A stretch of DNA of 64,000 nt from Acidimicrobiales bacterium (GTDB lineage: Bacteria; Actinomycetota; Acidimicrobiia; Acidimicrobiales; VFJN01), in the NCBI GenBank assembly GCA_036563805.1, contig DATCLS010000102.1, positions 67,903 to 131,902 of the forward strand, given 5' to 3'. The notes beneath the pieces were generated by a model that saw only the letters and a program-made list of their open reading frames with translations, made no database searches and was not told the DNA's origin. The stretch's first letter is position 1, and every line of letters starts with the position of its first letter. A program made the position numbers and the translations under genes. Below, piece by piece: positions 1 to 53,738 of this stretch.

Positions 1-1308
1 GCGGCCGAGCGGGCGGCCGAGGGCGCCCGCTCCCACGAGGTGCATGGCAGCGTGGTCGGCGCCCGCACGATCCGGGCGTTCCGGCTCCAGGACGTCCACC
101 TCGACCGTATCGACGCCCGGTCCCGCGAGTCGGTCCGGTTCGCCGTGGCCGCCGGCCGGGTCCGGGCCTGGTTCTTCTCCCGGCTGAACGGCGCCGAGCT
201 GGTCGGGCTGGGGACCGTGCTCGTCGTCGGCTTCCTACTGGTCCGCAACGGAACGATCACGGTGGGCGCGGCGACGGCGGCCGCCCTCTACTTCCACCGG
301 CTGTTCGACCCGATCGGCGGCCTGCTGCTCCAGCTCGACACCGCCCAGGCGGCCGGCGCCGCGCTGGCCCGCCTGGTGGGCGTGCTGGCGGTCCCGCCGC
401 CACCCGAGCCCGAGCGGCCGGCCACAGTGCGGGACGCCTCGGTGGCCGTCGAGGGCGTGCGGTTCGCCTACGAGCCGGGCGCCGAGGTCCTGCACGGCGT
501 CGACCTCCACCTCCGGCCGGGCGAGCGGGTGGCGCTGGTCGGCGTGAGCGGCGCCGGCAAGACCACGCTGGCCAAGCTGCTGGTGGGCGTCCACTCCCCC
601 GCCGCCGGCACCGTCCGGCTGGGCGGCGCCCCCGTCGACGAGATCGGGCCGGCGGACCTGCGGCGCACGGTCGCTCTCGTCAGCCAGGAGGTCCACGTGT
701 TCGCGGGCACGCTGGCCGACGACCTGCGCTTGGCCCGGCCCGACGCCACAGACGACGAGCTGCGGGCCGCCCTCGACCGGGTGGGCGCCACGCCCTGGGT
801 CGAGGCCCTGCCCGACGGGCTCGCCACCGTCGTGAACGACGGCCCCCACCAGCTGGGGCCGACCGAGGCCCAGCAGCTCGCCCTCGCCCGCCTGGTGCTG
901 GCCGACCCCCGGGTGGCCGTGCTCGACGAGGCCACGGCCGAGGCCGGCAGCGCCGGCGCCCGGCGGCTGGAGGCGGCGGCCGACCGGGCGGTGGCCGGCC
1001 GCACCACGCTGGTCGTGGCCCACCGGCTCACCCAGGCCGTGGCCGCCGACCGGATCGTGGTGCTGGACAAGGGCACGGTGCTCGAGGCCGGCACCCACGA
1101 CGAGCTGCTGGCCGCCGGCGGGGCCTACGCCGAGCTGTGGTCGGCGTGGTCGGCGACCCGGGCCCCCGGCGGGGCTCGCCCGCACGCCGGCGGTGCCGAG
1201 ACCGACGGCGCTCGGACCGACGGCGCTCGGACCGGCGGGGTCGGCACCGCCGGCGCCCGGCCCGGCGGAAACGGGCCCGACGGGGCTCGCCCGCGAGCGC
1301 AATCGTAA
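1..1308 (+). CDS. ABC transporter, fused permease/ATP-binding exporter (5' end outside window)
   Basis: The frame is open from nt 1. The end of a transmembrane domain is followed by an NBD with Walker A GVSGAGKTTL, signature-like LGPTEAQQLALAR, Walker B VAVLDEATAE and H-loop VVAHRL. It has a Gly/Ala/Arg-rich tail; stop TAA 1306-1308. Confidence 0.85.
   Translation, partial: AAERAAEGARSHEVHGSVVGARTIRAFRLQDVHLDRIDARSRESVRFAVAAGRVRAWFFSRLNGAELVGLGTVLVVGFLLVRNGTITVGAATAAALYFHRLFDPIGGLLLQLDTAQAAGAALARLVGVLAVPPPPEPERPATVRDASVAVEGVRFAYEPGAEVLHGVDLHLRPGERVALVGVSGAGKTTLAKLLVGVHSPAAGTVRLGGAPVDEIGPADLRRTVALVSQEVHVFAGTLADDLRLARPDATDDELRAALDRVGATPWVEALPDGLATVVNDGPHQLGPTEAQQLALARLVLADPRVAVLDEATAEAGSAGARRLEAAADRAVAGRTTLVVAHRLTQAVAADRIVVLDKGTVLEAGTHDELLAAGGAYAELWSAWSATRAPGGARPHAGGAETDGARTDGARTGGVGTAGARPGGNGPDGARPRAQS
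1201..1240 (+). repeat. 15-bp tandem repeat inside the ABC tail
   Basis: ACCGACGGCGCTCGG occurs at 1201-1215 and again at 1216-1230, with a diverged third copy from 1231. It encodes TDGAR-TDGAR-TGG. Confidence 0.8.
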
Positions 1309-1322
1309 GGTATACCTATCAT
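1305..1322 (+). promoter_or_regulatory. Copy 1 of cluster-specific 18-bp motif GTAAGGTATACCTATCAT (core palindrome AGGTATACCT)
   Basis: An AT-rich island in GC-rich DNA between the ABC stop (1308) and the KS start (1362). It matches 31454-31471 at 17/18 positions. It contains TAnnnT-type hexamers (TAAGGT, TATCAT). Confidence 0.45.
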
Positions 1323-1361
1323 CATGTTGTCGGGCTGCTTGATTGAGCCGGACGTCACCCG

Positions 1362-2498
1362 GTGACGGCGCAGCTGGCCGGCCTGGGGGCCGTCACGGGC
1401 TACGGCTGGGGCACGGAGCCGCTCCTCCAGGGGGTGGCGGCACAGACGACCGCCGCCGCTCACGCGGAGGTCGACGGCATCCGGGCGCTCGCCGCCCTCG
1501 TCCCCGAGCCGGGCGCCGAGCCGCTCGACCCCAACGAACGCTACGAGCACATGGTCGGCGCCGCCGTCGACGAGGCCCTGGCCGAGGCCGCCGGCCGCGG
1601 CTGGGAGCCGGGCGACCGGGTCGGCGTCCTGTTCTGCACGGGCATCGCCGACATCCGGGCGATCCGCGACAACTTCTTCTCCGGCGGCCGCCCCCGGCCC
1701 AGCCTGTTCCCCCGCATGCTGCACACGGCGGCGGGCTCGGCCCTCGCCCAGCGCCACGGCTGGACCGGGCCCAACCTGGTGGTCAACGCCGCCTGCTCGT
1801 CGGGCAACGCCGCCCTCCAGCTGGCCGACGCCTGGCTCCAGGGCGGCCTCGCCACCGACGTCGTGGTGGTCGGCGCCGAGCTGTGCGTCATCGCCGAGAT
1901 CGTGACCGGCTTCCGGCGCATGCGCGTGCTGCTCGGCGAGAACCGGTCGGCCGCCGACTGCCGGCCGTTCCAGGAGGGCAGCCGCGGCTTCTTCCTCGGC
2001 GAGGCGGCGGTGGCGCTGGTGGTGACGAACCGGGCCGACAGCGGCCGCGCCACCTACCTCGGCGGCGCCACCACCCACGACGCCTACCACCTGGTGGCCC
2101 CCGAGCCCGAGGGCCGCGAGCTCGCGCGCTGTTTCGTGGACGCGCTGGCCGCCGCCGGCGCCGCCCCCGGCGACATCGCCGTGATCAAGGCCCACGGCAG
2201 CGGGACCCCGATCAACGACGGCATCGAGGCCGCGCTGGCCGACCGGCTGTTCCCCGACCGCACGCGCCTCTGTAGCTACAAGCCGCTGCTCGGCCACTGC
2301 ATGGCCGCCGCCGCGCTGGCCGAGCTCGCCGGCCTCCTCGCCGGCTACGAGGCCGGCGCCCTGCCCGCCCGGGTCAGCGACGACCCCGCGCACCCCCGGC
2401 TCGCCGACGGCGAGCCCCCGCCCGACGGCCTGGTGCTGTGCACCTCGGTCGGCCTGGGCGGCACGAACACCGCCGTCGTCCTCGACATCCACCGGTGA
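1362..2498 (+). CDS. Stand-alone beta-ketoacyl synthase (KAS I/II-like, Cys-His-His)
   Basis: 378 aa from GTG 1362. Active-site motifs are NAACSSGNAAL (Cys), KAHGSGTP (His) and LLGHCMAAAA (His); a DAYHLVAPEP motif is also present. Confidence 0.85.
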   Translation: MTAQLAGLGAVTGYGWGTEPLLQGVAAQTTAAAHAEVDGIRALAALVPEPGAEPLDPNERYEHMVGAAVDEALAEAAGRGWEPGDRVGVLFCTGIADIRAIRDNFFSGGRPRPSLFPRMLHTAAGSALAQRHGWTGPNLVVNAACSSGNAALQLADAWLQGGLATDVVVVGAELCVIAEIVTGFRRMRVLLGENRSAADCRPFQEGSRGFFLGEAAVALVVTNRADSGRATYLGGATTHDAYHLVAPEPEGRELARCFVDALAAAGAAPGDIAVIKAHGSGTPINDGIEAALADRLFPDRTRLCSYKPLLGHCMAAAALAELAGLLAGYEAGALPARVSDDPAHPRLADGEPPPDGLVLCTSVGLGGTNTAVVLDIHR

Positions 2499-2514
2499 CC
2501 CAGGGAGCACGAGC

Positions 2515-2799
2515 ATGACCACGACCGCGTCCGCCGCCGACGTCCTCGCCAAGCTGCAGAAGAGCTACGACCTGGTCGTGTCCGGCGACGAGCCCCGCCG
2601 GCTGCGCCTCGAGGACGACATCACCGAGGACCTCGACCTCGACTCCATGGAGTTCATCGACCTGGTGTCGGTGCTCGAGGAGGAGTTCCCGGCCGATGTC
2701 ATCGACGCCGTGATCGAGCGGACGCCGGACATCCGCACGGTCGGCGAGCTGGTCGACGCCTTCCTGGCCGCCTCCGCCGCCTCCGCCGCCTCCGCCTGA
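2515..2799 (+). CDS. Acyl carrier protein
   Basis: 94 aa. The phosphopantetheine attachment motif is DLDLDSMEFIDL (Ser44 codon 2644-2646). GGGAG lies upstream of the ATG. The C-terminus has an Ala/Ser repeat. Confidence 0.85.
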   Translation: MTTTASAADVLAKLQKSYDLVVSGDEPRRLRLEDDITEDLDLDSMEFIDLVSVLEEEFPADVIDAVIERTPDIRTVGELVDAFLAASAASAASA

Positions 2800-2808
2800 C
2801 GGGCCGCC

Positions 2809-3587
2809 GTGACCGTCCTCGTGTTCGAGGGCCAGGGCGCGACCGCGGTGCCCGGGGAGCCCGAGACCGACCTCACCGCGCTGCCGCCCGCCGAGGCCCA
2901 GCGGGCCATCGTCGTTCATCAGCTCGGCCGCGCCCGGGCGGGCGCCGAGGGACGTGAGCGCATCGACGGCGTGCTCGGCCAGAGCCTGGGGGAGGTCAGC
3001 GCCCTGGTCGTGGCCGGGGCGCTGAGCGAGGAGGACGGCCTGCGGTTCGTCCGCCTGCGGGCCGCGCTGCCGGCCCGCCTGCTCCCGCCCCGGCCGTGGA
3101 CGATGGCGTCGATGACCCGGCTCCGGCCGGCCGCCGCCGAGGAGGCGACCGAGGGGCTCGACGTCTGGGTCGCGGGCCGCAACGGGCCGGCCGACTGCGT
3201 CGTCGTCGGCGCCTCCGGCGACTTCGCCACCTTCGTCGAGCGGGTCGGCGCCCTGCCCCAGACCTACCGCGAGCTGCCGGTCACCGCGCCCTACCACACG
3301 CCGGTCATGGCCCCGGTGGCCGAGGCCCTGGCCGCCGAGGTGGCGGGCTTCGACGTCCGCGACCCGGCCGTGCCGGTGTGGAGCCCGACCGGGGTCACGG
3401 AGGTGCGCACGGCCGCCGACGTCCGCCGCGTGCTGATCGAGGCCCTCACGTCGCCGGTGGCGTGGGCGGAGACGCTGGCCGTCGCCGCCGGCCGGTGGCC
3501 CGACGCGCCGTGGCGCGAGTGCGGACCGTCGTGCTCGCTGCACCGCTTCGTCTGGAAGAACGGCCTGAAGCTCGACTGGGGGGAGGC

Positions 3588-3591
<4 letters not shown>
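2809..3591 (+). CDS. Stand-alone acyltransferase (FabD/malonyl-CoA:ACP transacylase-like, short)
   Basis: 260 aa with motifs [15 protein letters not shown] (a GHSxG variant with His->Gln; the Ser is kept) and APYHTPVM. Its stop TGA 3589-3591 overlaps the NRPS GTG 3588-3590. Confidence 0.8.
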
Positions 3592-27403
<23,812 letters not shown>

Positions 27404-27407
<4 letters not shown>

Positions 27408-28477
27408 CCGACTCCCGACCGACCGCCGGGCCCGGGTCCCGGCTGCTCGCCCTCCTCCTCGCCCTCGCGGTGGCTGCAGCCGCCTGCGGGTCCGGGTCCG
27501 GCGACGACGCCGGGCCGGATGCCAGGGGCGGGGCAGCGGCCGCCGGCGCCCACCCGGACGCCTACCCCGTCACCATCGAGCACACGTACGGCGAGACCAC
27601 GATCGAGGAGCCGCCCGAGCGGGTCGTGACCGTCGGCCTCACCGACCATGACGCCGTCCTCGCCCTCGGCGTCGCCCCGGTCGGGGTCACCGACTGGTTC
27701 GGCGACCAGCCCCACGCTGTGTGGCCGTGGGCGCAGGACGAGCTGGGCGACGCCGAGCCCGAGATCGTCGGCACCACCGAGGGCATCGACTTCGAGCAGG
27801 TGGCCCGGCTCCGCCCCGACGTGATCATCGGCCTCTACGCCGGCCTGACCGACGACGACTACGAGACGCTCTCGCAGATCGCCCCCACCGTCGCCCAGCC
27901 GGTCGACCATCCCGACTTCGGGATCCCCTGGCAGGAGCAGACCCGCACGATCGGGCGGATCCTCGGCCAGCCCGAAGAGGCCGACGAGCTGGTCACCGCC
28001 ATCGAGGACCGGTTCGCCCGGGCCCGAGCCGAGCACCCCGAGTTCGCGGGGCGGACCGCCGTCGTGGCCACGCCGTACGCCGGGTCGGTGTCGGTGTTCG
28101 CGCCGACCGATCCCCGGGGCCGCTTCCTCGACGCCCTCGGGTTCGAGCCGGTGGACGAGATCGTCGACCTGGTCGGCGACGGCTTCAGCGCCGACCTGAG
28201 CTACGAGCAGGCCGAGTTGCTCGACGTCGACGTGCTGGTGTGGATCATCGAGGACGCCGAGGCCGACATGCCCCAGGTCCGGAGCATGCCGATCTATGGC
28301 GAGCTCGACGTGGTGCGGGAGGGCCGCGAGGTCCCGGTCGAGAACCTGAGCGAGCTGGGTGGCGCCACGTCGTTCGGGACCGTGCTCAGCCTGCCCGTGC
28401 TGCTCGACCAGCTGGTGCCCATGCTGGCCGCCGCCGTCGATGGTGACCCCGCCACGCCGGTCGAGCAGCCCGGCTGA
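27404..28477 (+). CDS. Iron-siderophore-type ABC substrate-binding lipoprotein
   Basis: 357 aa with lipobox [13 protein letters not shown]. Periplasmic-binding-protein type 2 motifs are [23 protein letters not shown] and [11 protein letters not shown] 27404 overlaps the NRPS stop (ATGA). Confidence 0.85.
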
Positions 28478-28579: not shown

Positions 28580-29449
28580 TCAGCCCATGCGCTCGATGGC
28601 CTCGGCCAAGGCCAGCGTGCGCCGGGCCTGCTCGACGTGCAGGTTCTCGACCATCCGGCCGTCGACCGTGACCACGCCCCGGCCCTCCTTCTCGGCCGCC
28701 TCGAACGCCTCGATGATGCGACGGGACCGCTCGATCTCGTCGGGCGCCGGCGCGAACACCTCGTTGCACGGCTCGACCTGGCTCGGGTGGATGAGCGTCT
28801 TGCCGTCGAAGCCCATCTGCCGGCCCTGCCGGCACTCGGCCGCAAACCCCTCGGCGTCCTTGATGTCGTTGTAGACGCCGTCGAGGATCGCCTTGCCCGT
28901 GGCCCGGGCGGCGATCACGCACAGCCCGAGCCCGGTGAGCAGCGGCTGGCGGCCGGGCACGTGCTCGGCGTTGAGCTCCTTGGCCAGGTCGTTGGTGCCC
29001 ATGACCAACATGTTGAGCCGCTCGGACGCCGAGCACACCTCCTCGGCCCGCAGCATCGCCGCCGGCGTCTCGAGCATGGCCCAGATGCGGGTGCGGTCGG
29101 GGGCGCCAGCGGCCTCGAGCGCCCGCTCGATGGCGTGCACGGCCGCGGCCGAGTCGACCTTGGGGACCACGACGGCGTCCGGCCCGGCGGCGGCCGCCGC
29201 CCGCAGGTCGTCGTCGTGCCAGGGCGTGCCGGCGCTGTTGACCCGGATCGTGACCTCGCGGTGGCCGTAGCGGCCCGACGCCGCCGCCTCGGCCACCCGG
29301 TCGCGCGCCTCGACCTTGGCGTCGGGCGCCACCGCGTCCTCGAGGTCGAGGATGAGGGCGTCGGCCGGCAGGCCGGCCGCCTTCTCGAGCGCCCGCTCGT
29401 TGGCGCCCGGCATGTAGAGGACGGAGCGGCGGGGACGCAGCTCGCCCAT
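28580..29449 (-). CDS. HpcH/HpaI-CitE family CoA-ester lyase/thioesterase (citrate lyase beta / malyl-CoA thioesterase-like)
   Basis: 289 aa from ATG 29449 (the track ORF 28580-31051 is read-through of this frame). Motifs are LYMPGANERALEKA, LILDLEDAV, VVVPKV, MLETP, MGTNDL and FDGKTLIHPSQV. Confidence 0.8.
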   Translation of the reverse strand: MGELRPRRSVLYMPGANERALEKAAGLPADALILDLEDAVAPDAKVEARDRVAEAAASGRYGHREVTIRVNSAGTPWHDDDLRAAAAAGPDAVVVPKVDSAAAVHAIERALEAAGAPDRTRIWAMLETPAAMLRAEEVCSASERLNMLVMGTNDLAKELNAEHVPGRQPLLTGLGLCVIAARATGKAILDGVYNDIKDAEGFAAECRQGRQMGFDGKTLIHPSQVEPCNEVFAPAPDEIERSRRIIEAFEAAEKEGRGVVTVDGRMVENLHVEQARRTLALAEAIERMG

Positions 29450-29451
29450 CG

Positions 29452-30507
29452 TCACAGCACCCCCTCGTAGGCCTTGGCCAGCTCCGGGTCCTTGGCGGCC
29501 AGCGCGGTGGCCAGGTCGAGCATGACCTTGCACTGCTTGACGGAGGCGTCGTCCTCCATCTTCCCGTCGATCATGAGGGCGCCGGTGCCGTCGCCCATGG
29601 CGTCGACCACCCGGCGGGCGTGGCGGACGTCCTCGGGGTCGGGCGAGAACACCCGGCGGGCGATGTCGATCTGCACGGGGTGCAGGCTCCACGCCCCCAC
29701 GCAGCCGAGCAGGAAGGCGTTGCGGAACCGGTCCTCGCAGGCGACCGTGTCCTTGATGTCGCCGAACGGCCCGTAGAACGGGAGCAGGCCGTGCATCGTG
29801 CAGGCGTCGACCATGCGGGCGATCGTGTAGTGCCACAGGTCCTGCTGGTAGGTGGCGCGCTCGGCCTCGACGTCGCCGCCCGGCGGGTCCTGGCGGACCA
29901 GGTAGCCGGGGTGGCCGCCGCCGACCCGGGTCGTCTTCATGCGCCGGCTGGCCGCCAGGTCGGCTGGGCCCAGCGACAGGCCCTGCATGCGGGGGCTGGC
30001 GCCGCAGATCTCCTCGACGTTGGCCACGCCCCGGGCGGTCTCGAGGATGGCGTGGAGCAGGATCGGCCGGTCGAGGCCCGCCTTCGCCTCCAGCTGGGCC
30101 AGCAGACGGTCGACGTAGTGGATGTCCTCGGGCCCCTCGACCTTGGGGACCATGATGACGGCCAGCTTGTCGCCGATGGCGGGCACCAGCTGCAGCAGGT
30201 CGTCGAGCACCCACGGCGAGTCGAGGCTGTTGATCCGGGTCCACAGCGGCGTGTCGCCCAGGTCGGCCTCCCGGGCGATGCGGATCAGGCCCTCGCGGGC
30301 GGCCTCCTTGCGGTCGGCCTGGATGGCGTCCTCGAGGTTGCCGAGGAGGATGTCGACCTTGGCCGCGATGTCGGGAACCTTGGCGGCCATCTTCTCGTTG
30401 CTCGGGTCGAAGAAGTGGATCATCCGGGAGGGCCCGAACGGGATCTCCCGGACGGGCTCCGGCGCTCCGACGGCGAGCGGGCGGAAGAAGTCCTTCGGCG
30501 AACGCAT
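29452..30507 (-). CDS. mcl: L-malyl-CoA/beta-methylmalyl-CoA lyase-like (HpcH/HpaI family)
   Basis: 351 aa. It is collinear with Mcl proteins as I remember them: [99 protein letters not shown] precedes it. Its stop lies 2 nt from the CitE-like start. Confidence 0.75.
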
Positions 30508-30560
30508 CGAGCCTCCATGTCGACGGACCAGCGCGAGCGAGCCTAGTTACCGACCCCTCG

Positions 30561-31448
30561 TCACCCCCATTCGGGGGTGGCCTGGGTGGCCGCGGGCCGG
30601 CGGGCGCCGGCCAGCAGGGCGGCCAGGTCGATGCGGCGGACGGCGATTTCGACCGCAGCGCCGGCCGGCTCCCCCGGGGCGGCCGGCTTCCCGGGGGCGG
30701 CGAGGCCGTCCCCGACGGCGGCGGCAGAGCGCCCGGCGGGGGTCGGGACGTGCCCCGGGCCGGCCCTGGGGTCGGGGGCGCCGGCGGCGTCCGCGGGGGC
30801 GAGCGCCACGGCGGCGACGAGCCCGTCCCCGGCGGCCACGTCCCGCACCGCCCACCCGTCGGGCCCCGGGCCCGGCGCCGGCCCCACGCCGACGGCCACG
30901 GTCGCCGGGTCGCGGCCGAGGCCGGTGCCGAGGCCCTTGAGGACGGCCTCCTTGCGGACCCAGGCCCGCAGCGCGGCCGGCCCCCGGTCGGCGGCGGGGA
31001 GGGCGGCCAGGGCCCGGCGCTCGTCGGGGTGGAGGGCGGCGGCCAGGTCATCGGCCCCGACCCCGCGGTCGGCCGCCTCGACGTCGACGCCGACCGGCCG
31101 GCGGGCCACCGCCACGGCCGCCACGGCGCCGCCGTGCGCCAGCGAGAAGTGCCAGGCTGCCGGGCCGGCGCCGAGCGCGCCGGCCAGGCGGGGCCGGCCG
31201 TGGGGCGCGCCGCACAGCGGGCACGGCTCGCGGGCGAAGGCCAGCCCGCCTGGCGGGCGGCCGGCGTAGCGGGCGAGGACGGCCCGCAGGGCGGCGTGCG
31301 CAGCCACGTAGCGGTCGCGGTCGGCCGGCCGCCGGAACCGGGCCGCCCGGCCGACCTCCTCGGCGTCCAGCAGGCCGTCGGCCCCCGGGACGCCGGCCAG
31401 GCGGACGATCCAGACGTCGCAGCCGGGGGTGGTTCTGCCCTCCGTCAC
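30561..31448 (-). CDS. Sfp-type 4'-phosphopantetheinyl transferase
   Basis: 295 aa from GTG 31448 (codon 209 of track ORF 30561-32072). Motifs are PVGVDVEAA and WVRKEAVLKGLGTG. It has an Ala/Pro/Gly-rich C-terminal extension of ~90 aa. Confidence 0.8.
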   Translation of the reverse strand: MTEGRTTPGCDVWIVRLAGVPGADGLLDAEEVGRAARFRRPADRDRYVAAHAALRAVLARYAGRPPGGLAFAREPCPLCGAPHGRPRLAGALGAGPAAWHFSLAHGGAVAAVAVARRPVGVDVEAADRGVGADDLAAALHPDERRALAALPAADRGPAALRAWVRKEAVLKGLGTGLGRDPATVAVGVGPAPGPGPDGWAVRDVAAGDGLVAAVALAPADAAGAPDPRAGPGHVPTPAGRSAAAVGDGLAAPGKPAAPGEPAGAAVEIAVRRIDLAALLAGARRPAATQATPEWG

Positions 31449-31453
31449 CGGAT

Positions 31454-31471
31454 GTAAGGTACACCTATCAT
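31454..31471 (+). promoter_or_regulatory. Copy 2 of 18-bp motif GTAAGGTACACCTATCAT
   Basis: It fills the 21-bp gap between the divergent PPTase (start 31448) and acyltransferase (ATG 31470) genes. It matches 1305-1322 at 17/18 positions. Its last two bases are the A and T of the ATG. Confidence 0.45.
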
Positions 31472-32108
31472 GTCCTCGCCCCGCCGCCCGGCGCCGCGGA
31501 CCGGCACCGCGGCGCCGACCGGGGGCTCGGCCCGCCGGCTGCGGCGCCCCCTGGGCCCCGAGGTCGACGCCGTCGGCCCACCCCCGACCCCGCTCCTGGA
31601 CCCGCCGTGGGCCGTCGTCCCGGTGGCGCCGTCCGGGGTCGAGCTCGACCACGTCGTCCGGTGGATGGCCGAGCCCCACGTCGCCGCCTTCTGGGGGCAG
31701 GACTGGCCGCACGCCGCCTGGTCCGCCGAGGTCGCCCGCCAGCTGGCCGGCGACCACTCCCGACCCTGGACGGTGTGGCACCACGGCGAGCGGGTCGCCT
31801 ACGTCGAGGTGTACCGGGCCGCCCGCGACGTCGTCGCCGACGCCTACCCGGCCGGAGCCCACGACCTGGGCATCCACATCGCCATCGGCGACCGGCGGCG
31901 CACCGGCCGGGGCCTCGGGCCGGCCGTCCTCGCCGCCGTGGCCGAAGGGCTGTTCCGCGCGGAGGCCGCCTGCCGCGCCGTGGTCGGCGACCCCGACGCC
32001 GCCCACCACGTGGCCCGGCGGGCGTTCGCCGCCGCCGGCTTCGAGCCGGTGGCCGAGGTCGACCTCCCCCACAAGCGGGCGGCGCTCATGGCCCGCCGCC
32101 GCCCCTGA
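31470..32108 (+). CDS. MbtK/IucB-family N-acyltransferase (siderophore hydroxylamine acylation type)
   Basis: 212 aa. The pattern matches MbtK as recalled: RWMAEPHVAAFWGQDWP, YVEVYRAARDVV, HDLGIHIAIGD, RAVVGDPDAAHHVARRAF, GFEPVAEVDLPHKRAALMA. The N-terminal ~40 aa are low complexity, so the start is uncertain. Confidence 0.75.
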   Translation: MSSPRRPAPRTGTAAPTGGSARRLRRPLGPEVDAVGPPPTPLLDPPWAVVPVAPSGVELDHVVRWMAEPHVAAFWGQDWPHAAWSAEVARQLAGDHSRPWTVWHHGERVAYVEVYRAARDVVADAYPAGAHDLGIHIAIGDRRRTGRGLGPAVLAAVAEGLFRAEAACRAVVGDPDAAHHVARRAFAAAGFEPVAEVDLPHKRAALMARRRP

Positions 32109-32195: not shown

Positions 32196-32966
32196 TCAGG
32201 CGTTCTCCCGGAACCAGGCCCGCAGCACGCCCCGGTAGGCGGCGTCGTAGCGGTCGTACTCCCGGCGCAGCGCGGCGCCGGGCCAGTCCGCCGGCAGCAG
32301 CTCGGCCGGGAGCAGCGGGTCGGCCTGGAAGTGGCGGAGCACGTCGGCGCTGAGCACGAACCCCTCGGCCAGGCAGCCGCGGTCCCCCGCCTCCAGCGGG
32401 CCCACGAGCGCGCCCATGCGCCGGCGCAGCTCGCCGGCCCGCGCCGCCCAGGCGTCGAGGTCCCACAGCTCGGCGGCCAGCGCCGCCGGGTCGCCGTCGG
32501 GCACCGACCGGAACCAGCGCACCTCCTCCCCCACGGCCGGCACGGCGTCGTCGCCCAGGTTGTCGGGCCGCAGCCACACCCCCTCGCGCAGCTCGGCCAG
32601 GCGGGCGCCCGCCAGCGCCGTCCGCAGCGCCGAGCGGTCGGCCGCCGCCCGCCGCCCGGCCGCCACGATCACCGCCTGGAGCCACCGACCGTCGGTCCAG
32701 GGCCGGGTCCGGGCCTCCCGGCTGGCCGCCTGGCGGGCCTGGCGGGCCAGCAGCCGGTCGGACGCCAGCTCGTACCAGCCGTCCTGCGCCCGCACCTCGC
32801 CAGCCGCCGCCATGCGGGACAGCGCCGTGCGGGTGGTGCCCTCGGCCAGCCCGAACAGCTCGGTCGTGCGGACCAGCAGCCGCACCGGCAGCCGGGGCGG
32901 GTCGGTGCCGAGCAGCACCGACAGCAGCACCGACCGGGCGGTGAGGGTGTTACGTGATGGCGACAT
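32196..32966 (-). CDS. PaaX-family transcriptional regulator
   Basis: 256 aa. The N-terminal wHTH reads LTARSVLLSVLLG...TALSRMAAAGEV, followed by a PaaX-like C-terminal domain (LRPDNLG, WDLDAWAARA). Confidence 0.75.
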   Translation of the reverse strand: MSPSRNTLTARSVLLSVLLGTDPPRLPVRLLVRTTELFGLAEGTTRTALSRMAAAGEVRAQDGWYELASDRLLARQARQAASREARTRPWTDGRWLQAVIVAAGRRAAADRSALRTALAGARLAELREGVWLRPDNLGDDAVPAVGEEVRWFRSVPDGDPAALAAELWDLDAWAARAGELRRRMGALVGPLEAGDRGCLAEGFVLSADVLRHFQADPLLPAELLPADWPGAALRREYDRYDAAYRGVLRAWFRENA

Positions 32967-33002
32967 GTGCAGAGAAACTGTATTATCGAGAGCGTGGGTG
33001 CG

Positions 33003-34180: not shown

Positions 34181-34618
34181 GTGGAGGTCCACGACGAGGT
34201 CAGCGTGCGGCTGGCCGCCGCGGGGCACCGGTACACCGCCGGGCGCCGCACGCTGGTCGACGTGCTCGCCGCCAGCGGGCGCCCGCTGACCGTCCCGGAG
34301 ATCATCCGGAGCGTCGGCGCCCAGGGCCTGCCCCAGAGCTCCGCCTACCGCAACCTGACCGTGCTGGTCGACGCCGGCGTCGTCCGCCGGGTGGCCGGCG
34401 GCCCCGGCCACGACCGGTTCGAGCTGGCGGAGGACCTGTCCGGACACCACCACCACCTGCTGTGCACGTCGTGCGGCGTGGTGGCCGACGTCCCGACGTC
34501 GCCCCGGCTCGAGCGGGCGGTGGCCGAGGCGGCCAAGCTGGCGTCGGCCGAGTCGGGGTTCGAGGTCGCGGGCCACCGCATCGACCTGGTCGGCCTGTGC
34601 GGCACCTGCCGGGGCTGA
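34181..34618 (+). CDS. Fur-family metalloregulator
   Basis: 145 aa with a wHTH (RPLTVPEIIRSV...SSAYRNLTVLVDAGVV), an HHHHLLCTSCG motif and a C-terminal CGTC. Confidence 0.85.
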   Translation: MEVHDEVSVRLAAAGHRYTAGRRTLVDVLAASGRPLTVPEIIRSVGAQGLPQSSAYRNLTVLVDAGVVRRVAGGPGHDRFELAEDLSGHHHHLLCTSCGVVADVPTSPRLERAVAEAAKLASAESGFEVAGHRIDLVGLCGTCRG

Positions 34619-43889: not shown

Positions 43890-44695
43890 GACGCCTCCTC
43901 CGGCAGCGGATAGGGGAACTTGGCGGCGACGCCGCCGTCGACCACGAGCGTCTGCCCGTTGACGTAGCCGGCCAGGTCACTGGCCAGGAACAGCAGCGCG
44001 GCGGCGATGTCGGCCGGCAGCGCCACCCGGCGGAGCGGCGCGTTGTCGCTGTTCTGGCGGCGGCCCTCCTCGCCCAGGTAGGCGGACACCCGGGGCGTCC
44101 ACACCACGCCGGGGGCGACGGCGTTGGCCCGGATCCCGAGCGGGCCCAGCTCCAGCGCGGCCGACCGCACCAGGCTCATGAGCCCGGCCTTGAAGGCGCC
44201 GTACGCCGCGTGCTGGGGCGCGCCGGTCAGCCCCGAGACCGAGGCGACGAACACCATGGCGCCGCCCGAGCCGGCGGCCATCCGCCGGCCCAGCACCTGC
44301 ATGGCCAGCCAGGCGTGGCGCAGGCAGATGTCGTGCTCCCACTCCCACAGCTCGTCGCTGGTGTGGAGCAGCGACGAGTACTGCGCCATGCCGATGATGT
44401 CGACCAGGCCGTCGACCCGTCCGCCGAGGGCGGCCGCGGCGTCGTCGCCCAGGCGCTCCACCTCGGCCCGCTGGGTGGCGTCGCCAGCCCAGGCGGTGCC
44501 GCCGACCTCCTCGGCGATGTCGGCCGCCAGGTCGGGGTCCTTGTCCACCAGCACCAGGCGGGCGCCGGCTTGGGACAGGGCGTGGCTCGCCTGGCGGCCG
44601 ATCCCCTGCCCGGCACCGATCACGACGAACCCCCGACCGTCGAGGCGGAGCAGCCCCGGGTAGTCGGGGACCGCCGTGTCGTCGGTGCGGGTCAC
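43886..44695 (-). CDS. Short-chain dehydrogenase/reductase
   Basis: 269 aa from GTG 44695 with VIGAGQGIGR and YGAFK (YxxxK). GTGA overlaps occur at both ends. Confidence 0.85.
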   Translation of the reverse strand: MTRTDDTAVPDYPGLLRLDGRGFVVIGAGQGIGRQASHALSQAGARLVLVDKDPDLAADIAEEVGGTAWAGDATQRAEVERLGDDAAAALGGRVDGLVDIIGMAQYSSLLHTSDELWEWEHDICLRHAWLAMQVLGRRMAAGSGGAMVFVASVSGLTGAPQHAAYGAFKAGLMSLVRSAALELGPLGIRANAVAPGVVWTPRVSAYLGEEGRRQNSDNAPLRRVALPADIAAALLFLASDLAGYVNGQTLVVDGGVAAKFPYPLPEEAS

Positions 44696-45879
44696 GACGA
44701 CGCGCTCCCGGCGGGGCTGCCGGCCGCGCCGGTTGCGGCGCCGGCGGGCACCGTGCGGGCGCTGACCGCGACCTCGCGCTTGCGCAGCTCGGGGATGATC
44801 TCGGTGCCCAGCAGCTCGATCGTCTTCATGATCGACTCGTGGCTCAGGTAGCCGAACTGCACGTAGCACAGCAGCTGGTCGACGCCGAGCTCCTCGTAGC
44901 GCAGCATCTTGCGCAGGCACTCCTCGGGGTCGCCGACGATGATCATGTCGGCGTCCGCGAACTCGTGGGGGTCGAAGTCACCCTGCATCTGGCGCTCCAG
45001 CAGTGGGAAGGCCGCCTGGGCCTCCTCCGGGGGCAGGTTGGGGAACTCCCACTCGATCGTGAACTCGGCCAGGTTCTTGTACCACCACCACAGCGAGTCC
45101 CAGATCCCGTTGGCCTCACACTCGGCCATCGACTCGGCGCAGTGGACGAGCGTGTAGGCGGCGACCCGGTTGTTGACGACGCGGGTGATGGGCTCGGGCT
45201 CGGCGATGGCCGCACGGTACTGCTCGATGGCTGACGCCATCGCCTCCAGCGGCTGCATGATCGAGAACGACAGCAGGCCGAGGCCGTAACGGCCGGCCAG
45301 CTCGGCGGAGCCGGCGCTGGTGGCAGCCATCCAGGCGGGCGGGTGGGGGTCCTGCACCGGCTTGGGCGTGACCATGCGCCGGGGGAAGTCGAGGTACTTG
45401 CCGTGGAACTCGAAGTACTCCGACTCCCACATGCTGACGATGGCCTCGATGGCCTCCTTGGCCTGGGCCCGGCTCTCCTCGCGGTCGACGCCGAACGCGG
45501 TCTGCTCCATCGGTGTGGAGCGGCCCGTGCCCCACTCGACCCGGCCGCCGGACAGGATGTCGGCCGTCGCCACCTTCTCGGCCACCCGCATCGGCGGGCC
45601 GAAGCCGTGGGGCACGAGCGTGACGCCGAAGCCGAGGCGGATCTGCTCGGTGATCTGCGACAGCGCGCCGATCAGCACCTCGGGGGCCGGGCAGTGCGAC
45701 CGGCCCTCGCGGAAGTGGTGCTCGACGTGCCACGTCGTGTGGAAGCCGAGCTTGTCGGCCAGGCGGATCTGCTCCAGGGCCTCCCGGTAGGACTTCTGCT
45801 CGGCCCGGCGCTGGCCCCACGGGTGGGTGCCCTCCCACGGCTTGGGCACGTCGATCTCGTACAGCAGGTCGAGCTTCAC
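44692..45879 (-). CDS. Luciferase-like (LLM-class) flavin-dependent monooxygenase
   Basis: 395 aa from GTG 45879, after a GGAGGAGG RBS. The TIM-barrel LLM pattern is present (HVEHHF, GRVEWGTGRS, PKPVQDPHPP). Confidence 0.8.
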   Translation of the reverse strand: MKLDLLYEIDVPKPWEGTHPWGQRRAEQKSYREALEQIRLADKLGFHTTWHVEHHFREGRSHCPAPEVLIGALSQITEQIRLGFGVTLVPHGFGPPMRVAEKVATADILSGGRVEWGTGRSTPMEQTAFGVDREESRAQAKEAIEAIVSMWESEYFEFHGKYLDFPRRMVTPKPVQDPHPPAWMAATSAGSAELAGRYGLGLLSFSIMQPLEAMASAIEQYRAAIAEPEPITRVVNNRVAAYTLVHCAESMAECEANGIWDSLWWWYKNLAEFTIEWEFPNLPPEEAQAAFPLLERQMQGDFDPHEFADADMIIVGDPEECLRKMLRYEELGVDQLLCYVQFGYLSHESIMKTIELLGTEIIPELRKREVAVSARTVPAGAATGAAGSPAGSASS

Positions 45880-45915
45880 CGGCTCCCCCTCCTCCGGTCG
45901 TGGTTCGCCGTCATG

Positions 45916-45950
45916 GTTCGAAATAGCGAACCTAGTTCTATATCTCGAAC
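45916..45950. promoter_or_regulatory. Two adjacent GTTC-N8-GAAC dyads
   Basis: GTTCGAAATAGCGAAC (45916-45931) and GTTCTATATCTCGAAC (45935-45950), plus an extra GGTTCG at 45902-45907. They lie 37-71 nt upstream of the LLM start. Confidence 0.45.
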
Positions 45951-46283
45951 AGTGTCGTGCCTGGCGGGGCCGTGCGCAAGCTGTTCCGGCGACGGGCGCC
46001 GCACTCGCCCTCGGCCGGGCGCGGCGCCCCCGGTCGGCCACCTGAGCGGTGGCCTCGATCGTCAGCCCCCCGCCCCACGCGGCCGGCGAGCAGATCGGTG
46101 CGGGAGGCGGCCCGGCCGACGCCGCCCGGCGAGCCCGCGCTCCGCCGCCCGGCTTCGGCCGCTTGCGCCCAGGTCGGCGGCGAGTCGATGGGCCACGACG
46201 TCGGGGGTGAGCTCGGCGCGGGCCCGGTGGGTCGTCGACGATCGGCGCCCGGCCTCCCGGGCGCGGGCGGGGTGGGGCCGGCA

Positions 46284-52493: not shown

Positions 52494-52569
52494 GCGCTCA
52501 GGACGCCGGCGCCCTGGAACCCGCGCTCAGGACGCCGGCACCCAGGAGCCCCGCGCTCAGGACGCCGGC
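52494..52569. repeat. Three tandem ~30-bp repeats carrying GCGCTCAGGACGCCGGC
   Basis: The 17-mer is identical at 52494-52510, 52523-52539 and 52553-52569, with similar spacers (GCCCTGGAACCC / ACCCAGGAGCCCC). The third copy contains the real stop of the minus-strand dehydrogenase gene. Confidence 0.85.
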
Positions 52570-53708
52570 GCCGGCTCGACGGCGAGGATCCGGTCGTCGT
52601 CGGGGGCCGGGACGCCCCGGCCGTCGCGGTTGCTGGTGGCGACCCACAGGGAGGCGTCGGGCCCCTCGGGCGCGACGACCACGGTCCGCAGCCGGCCGTA
52701 CTCCTCCTCGAGCAGGGCCCGGGGCTCGCCGACCGTGCCGTCGGCGTCGACCGGCAGCTCCCACAGTCGCTGGCCCCGCAGGGCCGCCGCCCACAGCGAC
52801 CCGTCGGCGAAGGCCAGCCCGCTCGGCGACGCCTCGGAGGTCGGCCAGGTGACGACCGGGTCGGTGTACAGGTCGTCGGCCTCGTCGCCGCCGACGCCCT
52901 CGACGACCGGCCATCCGTAGTTGCGGCCCGGCTCGATGCGGTTGATCTCGTCCCAGGCGTTCTGGCCGAACTCGGTGGCGAACATTCGGCCCGCATCGTC
53001 CCAGGCCAGGCCCTGGACGTTGCGGTGGCCGTAGCTCCACACGGGCGTGCCGAACGGGTTGCCGGGCGCCGGGTCGCCCTCCGGCGTCAGGCGCAGGATC
53101 TTCCCGCCCAGGGAGCCGAGGTCCTGGGCGAGGCCGGTCTGGCCGGCGTCGCCCACGCCGGCGTACAGCATCCCGTCGGGGCCGAAGGCGATGCGGCCGC
53201 CGTTGTGGATCACGCCTTTGGGCAGGCCGTCGATCACGACCTCGGGTTCGCCCAGCCGGCCGTCCTCGTACCGGGCCCGGACGATGCGGTTGTCCTCCGC
53301 TGCCGTCAGGTACAGGTACACGTACCGGTCGGCGGCGAAGTCGGGCGACACGGCGATGCCGAGCAGGCCGCCCTCGCCGGCCGGCTCGACCCCCGTCACC
53401 TCGCCCACCTCGGTGACCTCGCCGGCGGCCGAGACGTGCACGACCCGGGCCCGGTCGCGCTCGGCGACCAGGGCGCCGCCGTCAGGCAGGACCGCCACGC
53501 CCCACGGGACCTCGAGCCCGGCGGCCACCGTCCGCACCTCGGCGCCGGGGGCCGCCTGGGCGTCTGCCGGCGACGGCCTGAGGGCGGTCACCGGGCTGGA
53601 CGCACCCGGCGGGCCGAGCGTGGCCACCCCGCTCAGGCTCAGCACCGCCGTCAGAACGATCGTTATTCGGCGAGTCAACAAGATGCCCGGGACGCTACCG
53701 CCGGTCAA
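52557..53708 (-). CDS. PQQ-dependent (soluble glucose/sorbosone-type) sugar dehydrogenase
   Basis: It has a signal-like N-terminus and beta-propeller motifs GLLGIAVSPDF, HNGGRIAFGPDGMLY and YGHRNVQGLAWD. The TTG start at 53708 is uncertain. Confidence 0.8.
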   Translation of the reverse strand: MTGGSVPGILLTRRITIVLTAVLSLSGVATLGPPGASSPVTALRPSPADAQAAPGAEVRTVAAGLEVPWGVAVLPDGGALVAERDRARVVHVSAAGEVTEVGEVTGVEPAGEGGLLGIAVSPDFAADRYVYLYLTAAEDNRIVRARYEDGRLGEPEVVIDGLPKGVIHNGGRIAFGPDGMLYAGVGDAGQTGLAQDLGSLGGKILRLTPEGDPAPGNPFGTPVWSYGHRNVQGLAWDDAGRMFATEFGQNAWDEINRIEPGRNYGWPVVEGVGGDEADDLYTDPVVTWPTSEASPSGLAFADGSLWAAALRGQRLWELPVDADGTVGEPRALLEEEYGRLRTVVVAPEGPDASLWVATSNRDGRGVPAPDDDRILAVEPAPAS

Positions 53709-53723
53709 CAGCGACAGGGCGGA

Positions 53724-53738
53724 TTCATATGATATGAA
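53724..53738. promoter_or_regulatory. 15-bp perfect 7-1-7 palindrome TTCATATGATATGAA
   Basis: It sits in the middle of the 36-bp divergent gap between 53708 (-) and 53745 (+). It is a purely AT-rich island in GC-rich DNA. Confidence 0.5.

What the first reader, a model, noticed from the sequence alone, without database searches (positions are those of the whole stretch)
1305..1322. 18-bp AT-rich motif GTAAGGTAYACCTATCAT seen at both promoter regions of the cluster
Copy 1 (1305-1322, GTAAGGTATACCTATCAT) lies between the ABC stop and the KS-ACP-AT-NRPS-SBP operon. Copy 2 (31454-31471, GTAAGGTACACCTATCAT) lies between the divergent PPTase and MbtK-like genes. The two agree at 17 of 18 positions.

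The core is a 10-bp palindrome, AGGTATACCT (8/10 in copy 2). Both copies are followed within 0-2 nt by an ATG. In DNA this GC-rich, two such AT-rich 18-mers are unlikely to be chance.

The motif looks like a shared operator and/or promoter (TAAGGT and TATCAT fit the actinobacterial TAnnnT -10 pattern) co-regulating both halves of the cluster. It does not fit the 19-bp IdeR/DtxR iron box or the Fur/Zur boxes as I know them, so the cognate regulator is unclear.
Basis: seen in the sequence. Interest (0 to 1): 0.7.

Follow-up and report, generated by a model that had tools for sequence, protein, structure and literature searches.

The report
Single-dimer iron-box operator at siderophore promoters
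The repeated 18-base motif is a real, evolutionarily conserved control site in front of both halves of a siderophore gene cluster, and it most likely is a short "half" version of the known actinobacterial iron-repressor (IdeR/DtxR) binding site fused to the promoter.

Summary
GTAAGGTATACCTATCAT (1305-1322) and GTAAGGTACACCTATCAT (31454-31471) are the only matches in the window, with none expected by chance.

The window comes from an Acidimicrobiales MAG with 77% GC. The motif sits in front of the sORF-KS-ACP-AT-NRPS-SBP operon, and it fills the 21-bp gap between a divergent PPTase and an MbtK-like GNAT.

The same element lies in front of GNAT, KS or SBP genes in 13 related metagenome or MAG loci (52-81% protein identity). 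AGG and CCTA are invariant across these sites and the 4-bp spacer varies. A relaxed pattern gives 18 hits in 175 kb, all at cluster promoters.

The conserved core TAAGG-N4-CCTAY is the published 14-bp single-dimer IdeR half site, TTAGGNNNNCCTAA (PMC8464063). It is not the 19-bp double-dimer box, because no site has a complete second-dimer pair. GNAT homologues in other actinomycete genomes (Spirillospora, Actinomadura, Mycobacterium and others) mostly carry canonical 19-bp boxes near the gene.

The left half, TAAGGTA, is a symmetric TANNNT -10 element placed for a leaderless PPTase transcript and a short-leader GNAT or sORF transcript.

IdeR binding is inferred, not shown, and no IdeR gene is in the window. 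I rate this a new variant of a known kind, of moderate interest.

The parts
1305..1322 (+). Motif copy 1, GTAAGGTATACCTATCAT. The half-site core TAAGGTATACCTAT is 1306-1319. The -10-like TAAGGT is 1306-1311. It overlaps the ABC transporter stop codon TAA (1306-1308).
31454..31471 (+). Motif copy 2, GTAAGGTACACCTATCAT. The half-site core TAAGGTACACCTAT is 31455-31468. The symmetric -10 TAAGGTA is 31455-31461 (TAAGGT on the plus strand, TACCTT on the minus strand). It fills the 21-bp PPTase-GNAT gap.
1324..1365 (+). 13-codon sORF (MLSGCLIEPDVTR*). It starts 6 nt after the CCT of copy 1, and its TGA overlaps the KS GTG start (GTGA). It looks like a relic of the 5' end of an ancestral GNAT gene, probably kept for translational coupling.
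   Evidence: The same layout occurs in L065 (19-codon sORF, GTGA overlap).
1362..28477 (+). Operon downstream of copy 1: KS (1362-2498), ACP, AT (2809-3591), NRPS (about 3744-27407) and a siderophore-type substrate-binding protein (27404-28477).
28580..31448 (-). Minus-strand unit leaving copy 2: Sfp-type PPTase (30561-31448, GTG start 7 nt after TACCTT, which is leaderless geometry) followed by two HpcH/HpaI-family genes (29452-30507 and 28580-29449).
31470..32108 (+). MbtK/IucB-type N-acyltransferase (Acetyltransf_8). Its ATG lies 3 nt after the CCT of copy 2.
40..1308 (+). ABC exporter-type transporter whose stop codon lies in copy 1. It may be read through into the operon, and its own promoter is outside the window.

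Best explanation
Each copy is a compact promoter-operator module of a siderophore-type NRPS/PKS cluster.

The palindromic core (T/A)(A/T)AGG-N4-CCTA(Y/A) is a binding site for one dimer of an IdeR/DtxR-family metal-dependent repressor. It is a 'half site' made of two inverted CCTAA-type quintets with a 4-bp spacer.

The left quintet plus spacer, TAAGGTA, doubles as a symmetric TANNNT -10 element. Read on the minus strand (TACCTT-N6/7-GTG) it gives a leaderless PPTase-HpcH-HpcH transcript. Read on the plus strand (TAAGGT, predicted start at the invariant A of CCTA) it gives a transcript with a 3-6 nt leader. That transcript begins with the GNAT gene at copy 2, and with a relic sORF translationally coupled to KS at copy 1.

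When the repressor carries its metal it sits on the -10 element and start sites and shuts off both directions. Under iron limitation it leaves, and the whole roughly 31-kb cluster is expressed from just two sites.

Shown here: the motif, its conservation, its conservation pattern, its specificity to cluster promoters, the fit to the published half-site rules, and the geometry.

Inferred: that IdeR is the protein that binds, that the response is to iron, and where transcription starts.
For: 1. Real and non-random: 2 matches against 0 expected.

2. Phylogenetic footprint. Sixteen sites with the motif core lie in front of GNAT or KS genes: the 2 window copies and 14 sites in L002, L006-L008, L010-L012, L058 and L064-L068 (52-81% aa identity). 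AGG and CCTA are invariant in all of them. The spacer varies (TATA, TACA, TATG, TAGG, TCCA, TCCG, CATG), as expected for TTAGG-NNNN-CCTAA. Two further sites fit the pattern: L005 has a perfect TTAGGGTTACCTAA (spacer GTTA) between GNAT and NRPS, and L064 has TTAAGAATGCTTAA in front of its SBP gene.

3. In L064, ATAGGCATGCCTAA (before KS) and TTAAGAATGCTTAA (before SBP) share only the quintets with the other sites. They lack the flanks and the TAAGGT -10.

4. A relaxed half-site pattern gives 18 hits in 174,843 bp of family loci, all at cluster promoters. Shuffles give a mean of 0.76 and a maximum of 4.

5. Published rules. Each IdeR subunit binds one CCTAA quintet, and a dimer binds quintets 1+3 or 2+4. 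A designed half site binds one dimer with KD 78 nM, and a natural one (nuo) with KD 102 nM. The authors proposed the 14-bp consensus TTAGGNNNNCCTAA. Each quintet needs T at position 3 and C at position 1 or 2 (PMC8464063). Both quintets pass this rule in all 17 sites tested, and no site has a complete second-dimer pair at +5 or -5.

6. The quintet-PWM dimer score is 11.1 bits for both window copies. This is above the 75th percentile (9.8) of dimer subsites inside validated C. glutamicum boxes, and the next best window 14-mer scores 6.7.

7. Homologous position. GNAT homologues in Spirillospora, Actinomadura, Streptoalloteichus, Mycobacterium and other genera mostly carry canonical 19-bp boxes scoring 14-26 bits near the gene, in many loci within about 200 bp upstream of it. 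Eight of the 40 loci have none at 11 bits or more. The Mycobacterium sp. ACS4331 box TAAGGTAACCCTAGCCTCA is 15/19 identical to copy 1 in the same register.

8. Iron context: an MbtK/IucB-type GNAT, a FepB/FecB-type SBP, an NRPS and an ABC exporter.

9. No regulator gene is consistently linked to the motif, which favours a global regulator.

10. Promoter geometry. In TAAGGTA the -11A and -7T pair reciprocally on the two strands, as in the published bidirectional-promoter configuration with start sites 18 bp apart (PMC10268837). The PPTase GTG lies 6-7 nt after TACCTT in all divergent cases. Four other window genes show TANNNT-N6-8-start, although TANNNT occurs only 39 times in the window.
Against: - No DtxR-family gene is present in the window or in any fetched locus. 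The MAG genome could not be searched.
- The site has 2 mismatches to the strict 14-bp consensus (TAAGG, CCTAT).
- A 10-position pattern carries little information. In 7 of 40 mononucleotide shuffles of the window, some 14-mer scores at least as high.
- IdeR uses indirect readout, and minimal CNTNN sequences did not bind in vitro. Sequence fit therefore does not guarantee binding.
- Extra invariant positions (G before TAAGG, T6 A7 in most sites, C15 A16) are not explained by the half-site model alone.
- The plus-strand -10 leaves a 3-6 nt leader, which is unusual for truly leaderless initiation.
- An E. coli-type promoter scan finds nothing.
Confidence: 0.55

Rival explanations
1. The palindrome is the operator of a different dimeric regulator that is not in the DtxR family. 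It could be a lineage-specific regulator of this cluster or another global factor, and it happens to prefer AGG-N4-CCT.
For: - The outer symmetric positions G(-8)/C(+8) and the usually AT-rich spacer are conserved beyond what the IdeR half-site consensus specifies.
- No IdeR gene was seen.
- The full DtxR PWM scores are weak, 4.9-13.5 bits.
Against: - No regulator gene is consistently linked to the motif.
- The variation pattern, with invariant quintets and a free spacer, is what the IdeR model predicts. It includes TTAGG...CCTAA, ATAGG...CCTAA and TTAAG...CTTAA variants.
- Orthologous positions in other actinomycetes carry canonical iron boxes.
Confidence: 0.2
2. The element is only a core promoter and translation-start module, with no repressor. 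It would consist of a symmetric bidirectional -10 (TAAGGTA), a start-site region and an immediately adjacent start codon. The palindrome would be a by-product of promoter symmetry.
For: - TAAGGTA fits the reciprocal -11A/-7T configuration.
- The PPTase start lies 6-7 nt after TACCTT.
- A start codon always follows 3-6 nt after CCT, and sORFs are retained to keep this arrangement.
- Leaderless geometry occurs elsewhere in the window.
Against: - The right arm (CCTA) is invariant, yet neither -10 reading needs it.
- The L064 KS and SBP sites and the L005 site keep the two quintets but lack TAAGGT.
- The left arm is conserved even where there is no divergent gene (copy 1, L012, L064a, L065b).
Confidence: 0.15
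3. It is a degenerate but ordinary 19-bp double-dimer IdeR box (register 1306-1324 and 31455-31473).
For: - Copy 1 in this register has 5 mismatches to TWAGGTWAGSCTWACCTWA and scores 10.4 bits, the best hit in the window.
- It is 15/19 identical to a mycobacterial box at the same position.
- The fourth quintet is CAT.. in 11 of the 17 sites, which meets the minimal C-N-T rule.
Against: - The second quintet fails in every site, so no complete second-dimer pair exists.
- Scores lie below the lower quartile of validated sites, and copy 2 (7.3) is within the range reached by shuffles.
- Conservation stops at position 16-17 of the 19.
Confidence: 0.06
4. The element has no function. The two copies are alike only because one is a recent duplicate of the other, or the motif acts at the RNA level as a hairpin or Shine-Dalgarno sequence.
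For: - Copy 1 carries a relic of the GNAT 5' end, so the copies are paralogous by duplication.
- AAGG could pair with the 16S rRNA 3' end 10-13 nt before the start codon.
Against: - The flanks of the two copies have diverged completely while the 18-mer is kept.
- Orthologues at 52-81% protein identity keep the motif.
- There is no Rfam match.
- The only possible RNA stem is 3 bp, and folding of the copy-1 segment and of the minus-strand segment is no better than shuffles; the z = -2.1 of the copy-2 plus-strand segment comes mainly from an 11-bp GC stem downstream in the GNAT coding sequence.
- The PPTase has no SD-like sequence at a usable distance.
Confidence: 0.04

Closest known systems
IdeR half binding site (single-dimer site, 14-bp TTAGGNNNNCCTAA; Marcos-Torres et al. 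2021, PMC8464063)
   Same: Two inverted CCTAA-type quintets are separated by 4 bp. CCT is intact in both quintets. No partner quintets for a second dimer are present. The site lies in a promoter region of an actinobacterium.
   Different: The quintets read TAAGG/CCTAY, which is 2 mismatches to the strict consensus. Here the half site is the only operator of a classical IdeR target (siderophore biosynthesis). It is conserved across a lineage and fused to the -10 element. The one natural example described so far is at the nuo promoter of Saccharopolyspora erythraea, and its role is unknown. Binding has not been tested here.
Canonical 19-bp IdeR/DtxR/DmdR iron box (TTAGGTTAGSCTAACCTAA) upstream of mbtK-like and other siderophore genes
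   Same: The genomic position is the same, in front of the MbtK-like GNAT or NRPS genes. The quintet sequence is the same, and so is the expected logic: repression when the metal is bound, with the box overlapping the promoter. The Mycobacterium sp. ACS4331 box is 15/19 identical to copy 1.
   Different: Only two of the four quintets are present, so one dimer is expected instead of two. The full-box PWM scores are 7-10 bits, against 14-26 bits in the other actinomycete loci.
Symmetric bidirectional bacterial promoters (Warman et al. 2021; PMC10268837)
   Same: TAAGGTA gives TANNNT on both strands, with reciprocally paired -11A/-7T. The predicted start sites are 18 bp apart, and the divergent start codons are 22 bp apart.
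   Different: This is a high-GC actinobacterium with leaderless or short-leader mRNAs, and the same bases form a repressor site. No TSS data exist.
Fur/Zur/PerR boxes (7-1-7 palindromes)
   Same: They are AT-rich palindromic metalloregulator sites, and a Fur-family gene lies 2.7 kb away.
   Different: The match is poor: 8 of 19 mismatches to the Fur box and 5-8 mismatches to the 15-mers. The best registers differ between the two copies. The Fur gene is not conserved near the motif in relatives.

Membership tests
IdeR/DtxR single-dimer half site | Two inverted CCTAA-type quintets separated by exactly 4 bp (AGG-N4-CCT) | tested here: met
   TAAGGTATACCTAT and TAAGGTACACCTAT. All 17 family sites have the same spacing.
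IdeR/DtxR single-dimer half site | Each quintet has T at position 3 and C at position 1 or 2 (minimum base contacts, PMC8464063) | tested here: met
   Both quintets pass in all 17 sites.
IdeR/DtxR single-dimer half site | At most 1 mismatch to TTAGGNNNNCCTAA (the search criterion used by the authors) | tested here: not met
   The window copies have 2 mismatches (T2 to A, A14 to T). They have 1 mismatch if the W positions of the DtxR consensus are allowed. L005 (0 mismatches) and L064b (1 mismatch) meet the criterion.
IdeR/DtxR single-dimer half site | No usable quintet pair for a second dimer at +5 or -5 | tested here: met
   No site has both partner quintets.
IdeR/DtxR single-dimer half site | Metal-dependent binding of one IdeR dimer | not testable with these tools
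   This needs EMSA or footprinting.
IdeR/DtxR single-dimer half site | The host genome encodes an IdeR/DtxR-family regulator | not testable with these tools
   None is present in the window or in the fetched loci. The rest of the MAG was not available.
Canonical 19-bp IdeR/DtxR iron box | Four quintets in a 19-bp palindrome, with a score in the range of validated sites | tested here: not met
   The PWM gives 10.4 and 7.3 bits against a training median of 15.2 and lower quartile of 12.8. The best score in shuffled windows averages 7.7. The second quintet fails everywhere.
Fur-family box | 19-bp GATAATGATAATCATTATC or a 7-1-7 palindrome | tested here: not met
   The match has 8 of 19 mismatches to the 19-mer and 5-8 mismatches to the 15-mers, and the registers differ between the two copies.
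Symmetric bidirectional promoter | Reciprocally paired -11A/-7T on the two strands (TANNNTA) | tested here: met
   TAAGGTA occurs at 1306-1312 and 31455-31461. The configuration is described in PMC10268837.
Symmetric bidirectional promoter | Divergent transcription start sites about 18 bp apart | not testable with these tools
   No transcript data exist. The divergent start codons are 22 bp apart (31448 and 31470).
Known structured RNA (Rfam) | Match to a covariance model at the gathering score | tested here: not met
   There were 0 matches in the whole window. The only stem the motif can form is 3 bp; two of the three folded segments are no better than shuffles, and the z = -2.1 of the copy-2 plus-strand segment comes mainly from a GC stem downstream of the motif.

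The most novel reading that the evidence does not exclude
In this Acidimicrobiia lineage the classical iron-box architecture may have been replaced. One reading is that siderophore promoters are controlled solely by single-dimer half sites built into a symmetric, bidirectional, leaderless promoter. That would be the first natural case where a half site is the primary operator of a canonical IdeR target. The more radical reading is that the palindrome is read by a regulator that is not IdeR at all, meaning the iron regulon has been rewired. The probability given is for this more radical, non-IdeR version.
Probability: 0.18. Interest if true: 0.6.

Novelty: new variant of a known kind. Interest (0 to 1): 0.4.

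Why it matters
The 2023 IdeR review lists two open questions (PMC10317159): whether half sites exist outside Saccharopolyspora erythraea, and what IdeR does at them. This element bears on both. It is a lineage-wide, conserved half-site-type operator at the most classical IdeR target, siderophore biosynthesis. Relatives with full 19-bp boxes near the homologous gene provide a natural comparison.

It offers ready-made probes for asking whether one dimer is enough for iron repression. It also shows that regulon searches using the 19-bp box will miss iron-regulated clusters in deep-branching Actinomycetota.

The module is compact: operator, symmetric -10 element, leaderless start and a relic sORF that keeps translational coupling. 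That makes it a tidy example of how promoters are packed in 77% GC genomes.

It does not reveal a new kind of system.

Tried and rejected
- Literature string search for the core 10-mers. The hits were primers, plus one hit in a SloR (DtxR-family) site of S. mutans. On reading, the SloR element is a 6-6-6 AATTAA motif and the AGGTACACCT inside it is coincidental. The M. smegmatis hit was a mutagenesis primer.
- Fur, Zur and PerR consensus boxes match poorly.
- Cluster-encoded regulators (PaaX-like 32196-32966, Fur-family 34181-34618) are not conserved next to the motif in relatives. NCBIfam places the Fur protein far below every equivalog cut-off.
- E. coli-type sigma-70 promoter and terminator scans of both regions found nothing.
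- RNA-element idea: there is no Rfam match, the motif itself can only form a 3-bp stem, and two of the three segments fold no better than shuffles. The third (copy 2, plus strand) gives z = -2.1, which comes mainly from a GC stem downstream in the GNAT coding sequence.
- The window's own genome was not among the GTDB representative genomes retrieved. Specificity was assessed instead on 175 kb of related loci.
- L004, L009 and L013-L015 (GNAT relatives in other gene arrangements) carry neither the motif nor a clear iron box near the gene.
Full report
**Observation**

With up to three mismatches they are the only matches on either strand of the window, and none appears in 100 dinucleotide-preserving shuffles. 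The window is 72-80% GC. Only eight 20-mers reach 40% GC or less, and two of them are these copies.

**Context**

The window is part of ENA contig ERZ4232226 NODE_220 (106,645 bp). NCBI labels the same protein as coming from an Acidimicrobiales MAG.

Copy 1 overlaps the TAA stop (1306-1308) of an ABC exporter gene. It precedes KS (GTG 1362)-ACP-AT-NRPS (to 27407) and a siderophore-type substrate-binding protein (27404-28477).

Copy 2 fills a 21-bp gap. On one side is a Sfp-type PPTase (30561-31448, minus strand, GTG start) followed by two HpcH/HpaI genes. On the other is an MbtK/IucB-type acyltransferase (31470-32108).

The ATG after copy 1 (1324) is not the KS start. It opens a 13-codon sORF (MLSGCLIEPDVTR*) whose TGA overlaps the KS GTG in the sequence GTGA.

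**Conservation**

I collected relatives of the GNAT protein and read the DNA around them. In 13 loci from metagenomes and MAGs with 73-79% GC and 52-81% protein identity, the same element lies directly upstream of the GNAT gene. The loci are L002/L003, L006, L007, L008, L010, L011, L012, L058, L064, L065, L066/L067 and L068.

The family consensus is cGTAAGGTAtaCCTAyCAt. The start codon follows 3-6 nt after CCT in every case. Where a PPTase is divergent, its GTG lies 6-7 nt beyond TAAGG on the other strand.

In most of these loci the layout is PPTase, then the site, then GNAT-KS-ACP-AT in the other direction. In the window, GNAT has been separated from KS and each keeps a copy of the site.

The sORF after copy 1 resembles GNAT N-termini (VSSGDLI.., VSSGHLR..). 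L065 has the same arrangement: a second site, a 19-codon sORF and a GTGA overlap with KS. The two window copies are therefore paralogues by duplication. Their flanks have diverged while the 18-mer has not.

**What is conserved**

Across 16 sites with the motif core (two in the window and 14 in related loci), AGG and CCTA never change. The four bases between them do: TATA, TACA, TATG, TAGG, TCCA, TCCG and CATG. Two further sites fit the same pattern. L005 has a perfect TTAGGGTTACCTAA (spacer GTTA) between GNAT and NRPS, and L064 has TTAAGAATGCTTAA before its SBP gene.

L064 is the most informative locus. Besides the usual site before GNAT, it has ATAGGCATGCCTAA before KS and TTAAGAATGCTTAA before the SBP gene. 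These share only the two inverted pentamers with the other sites, not the flanks and not TAAGGT.

A relaxed pattern, WWARG-N4-CYTWH, hits 18 times in 174,843 bp of these loci. Every hit is at a GNAT, KS, SBP or NRPS promoter of the cluster. Shuffles give a mean of 0.76 hits and at most 4. The sites are orthologous and so not independent. The absence of any off-target hit is the point.

**Comparison with the iron box**

The window contains no canonical 19-bp IdeR/DtxR box. The best matches to TWAGGTWAGSCTWACCTWA are the motif copies themselves, with 5-6 mismatches.

I built a PWM from the 31 experimentally supported C. glutamicum DtxR sites (PMC1382209). It scores copy 1 at 10.4 bits and copy 2 at 7.3 bits. 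The leave-one-out median for the training sites is 15.2 and the lower quartile is 12.8. The best score in shuffled windows averages 7.7.

The literature gives a better frame. In IdeR-DNA crystal structures each subunit binds one of four CCTAA quintets. [quoted passage not shown] A designed half site binds a single dimer with KD 78 nM, and a natural one (nuo promoter) binds with KD 102 nM. The authors proposed the 14-bp consensus TTAGGNNNNCCTAA. Each quintet needs T at position 3 and C at position 1 or 2 (PMC8464063).

The motif core TAAGG-N4-CCTAY has exactly this architecture. Both quintets pass the rule in all 17 sites tested, and in none is there a complete quintet pair for a second dimer at +5 or -5. 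A quintet PWM scores both window copies at 11.1 bits. That is above the 75th percentile (9.8) of dimer subsites inside validated boxes and far above the next window 14-mer (6.7). However, 7 of 40 shuffled windows reach that score somewhere, so sequence fit alone is weak evidence.

**Homologous position in other actinomycetes**

I retrieved 40 GNAT loci from GTDB representative genomes. Most of them carry canonical boxes of 14-26 bits near the gene, in many loci within about 200 bp upstream of it. These include Spirillospora, Actinomadura, Streptoalloteichus, Crossiella and Mycobacterium; eight loci have no box at 11 bits or more. The Mycobacterium sp. ACS4331 box TAAGGTAACCCTAGCCTCA is 15/19 identical to copy 1 in the same register. 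So the Acidimicrobiia element occupies the place of a full iron box and retains half of it.

**Promoter reading (inferred)**

TAAGGTA reads TAAGGT on the plus strand and TACCTT on the minus strand. The -11A and -7T positions pair reciprocally, which is the configuration described for bacterial bidirectional promoters with start sites 18 bp apart (PMC10268837).

On the minus strand this puts the start at 31449, one base before the PPTase GTG. In L010-type loci it falls exactly on the GTG. That is leaderless geometry.

On the plus strand it puts the start at the invariant A of CCTA (1318 and 31467). This leaves 3-6 nt before the GNAT or sORF start codon.

TANNNT occurs only 39 times in the window. 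Four other genes have TANNNT-N6-8 directly before a start codon (32994, 40009, 51505, 63672), so the geometry is used in this genome. An E. coli-type scan finds no promoter. No transcript data exist.

A repressor dimer on the palindrome would cover the -10 element and both start sites.

**Alternatives**

- No regulator gene is consistently linked to the motif. The neighbours are PaaX-like and Fur-family genes in the window, SBP in L002, HxlR in L006, MarR in L064 and ArsR in L066. This argues for a global factor.
- Fur, Zur and PerR boxes do not fit.
- There is no Rfam match. The motif can form only a 3-bp stem. Two of the three folded segments are no better than shuffles; the z = -2.1 of the copy-2 plus-strand segment comes mainly from a GC stem downstream in the GNAT coding sequence.
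- A pure-promoter explanation does not account for the invariant right arm. It also does not account for the L064 and L005 sites that lack TAAGGT.
- A non-DtxR regulator cannot be excluded. No DtxR-family gene is in the window or in any fetched locus, and the rest of the MAG could not be searched.

**Verdict**

The motif is a genuine, conserved promoter-operator module that governs the whole cluster from two sites. It is best explained as a single-dimer IdeR/DtxR-type half site fused to a symmetric -10 element.

My confidence is about 0.9 that it is a functional cis-regulatory element and about 0.55 for the IdeR half-site mechanism.

This is a new variant of a known kind. The 2023 IdeR review lists as open questions whether half sites occur in other species and what their role is (PMC10317159). 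I found no later paper addressing this. Interest is moderate, at 0.4.

Noticed in passing
window 1324-1365; L065 10583-10642: There is a short sORF between the operator and the KS gene: 13 codons in the window and 19 in L065. It starts 6 nt after the motif and ends in a GTGA overlap with the KS start. Its first codons resemble GNAT N-termini (VSSG..), so it looks like the relic of an internally deleted or duplicated GNAT gene. It may be kept so that KS is translated by coupling on a leaderless or short-leader mRNA.
   Followed up: partly
window 1305-32108 versus L006, L008, L064, L066, L068: The cluster has been rearranged. In relatives the order is PPTase, then the site, then GNAT-KS-ACP-AT in the other direction. 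In the window GNAT and PPTase lie 30 kb downstream of KS, behind the NRPS, and each part has kept its own copy of the site.
   Followed up: partly
window 32981-32996: TATTAT is followed after 7 nt by an in-frame GTG (32994), which suggests a leaderless start for the desaturase/hydroxylase-like gene. The public gene call starts 9 nt later, at ATG 33003. The divergent PaaX-like gene starts at 32966, so this is another very short divergent promoter region.
   Followed up: no
window 45915-45932: An AT-rich inverted repeat, GGTTCG-AAATAG-CGAACC, lies near the 5' end of a luciferase-like monooxygenase ORF (44692-46041, minus strand, true start unresolved). It is a possible operator of an unrelated regulator.
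   Followed up: no
window 53724-53738: A perfect 15-bp palindrome, TTCATATGATATGAA, lies in the 36-bp gap between a divergent glucose/sorbosone dehydrogenase gene (52557-53708, minus strand) and an epoxide hydrolase gene (53745-54878, plus strand). It is a likely operator.
   Followed up: no
L064 6698-6720 and 9037-9059: Two paralogous promoter modules sit in one cluster: ATAGGCATGCCTAATAGCTAAT before KS and TTAAGAATGCTTAATAGCTAGT before the SBP gene. Both have a half-site-type palindrome followed by a shared TAGCTA. The second uses CTTAA quintets, the C2-to-T2 variant that still binds IdeR in vitro (PMC8464063).
   Followed up: partly
L045 10003-10011, L048, L049, L051, L016-L018 (between the iron box and the GNAT start): Mycobacterial orthologues carry a second conserved element, GGTAGGCTC, about 8-10 nt downstream of the canonical iron box and about 10 nt before the start codon. 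It could be a partial extra quintet or a promoter element.
   Followed up: no
window 34181-34618: A Fur-family protein gene lies downstream of the desaturase-like gene. It scores far below every NCBIfam Fur, PerR or Zur equivalog cut-off (58 bits against cut-offs of 146-220). Its metal and its targets are unknown, and no Fur-type box was found near the cluster promoters.
   Followed up: partly
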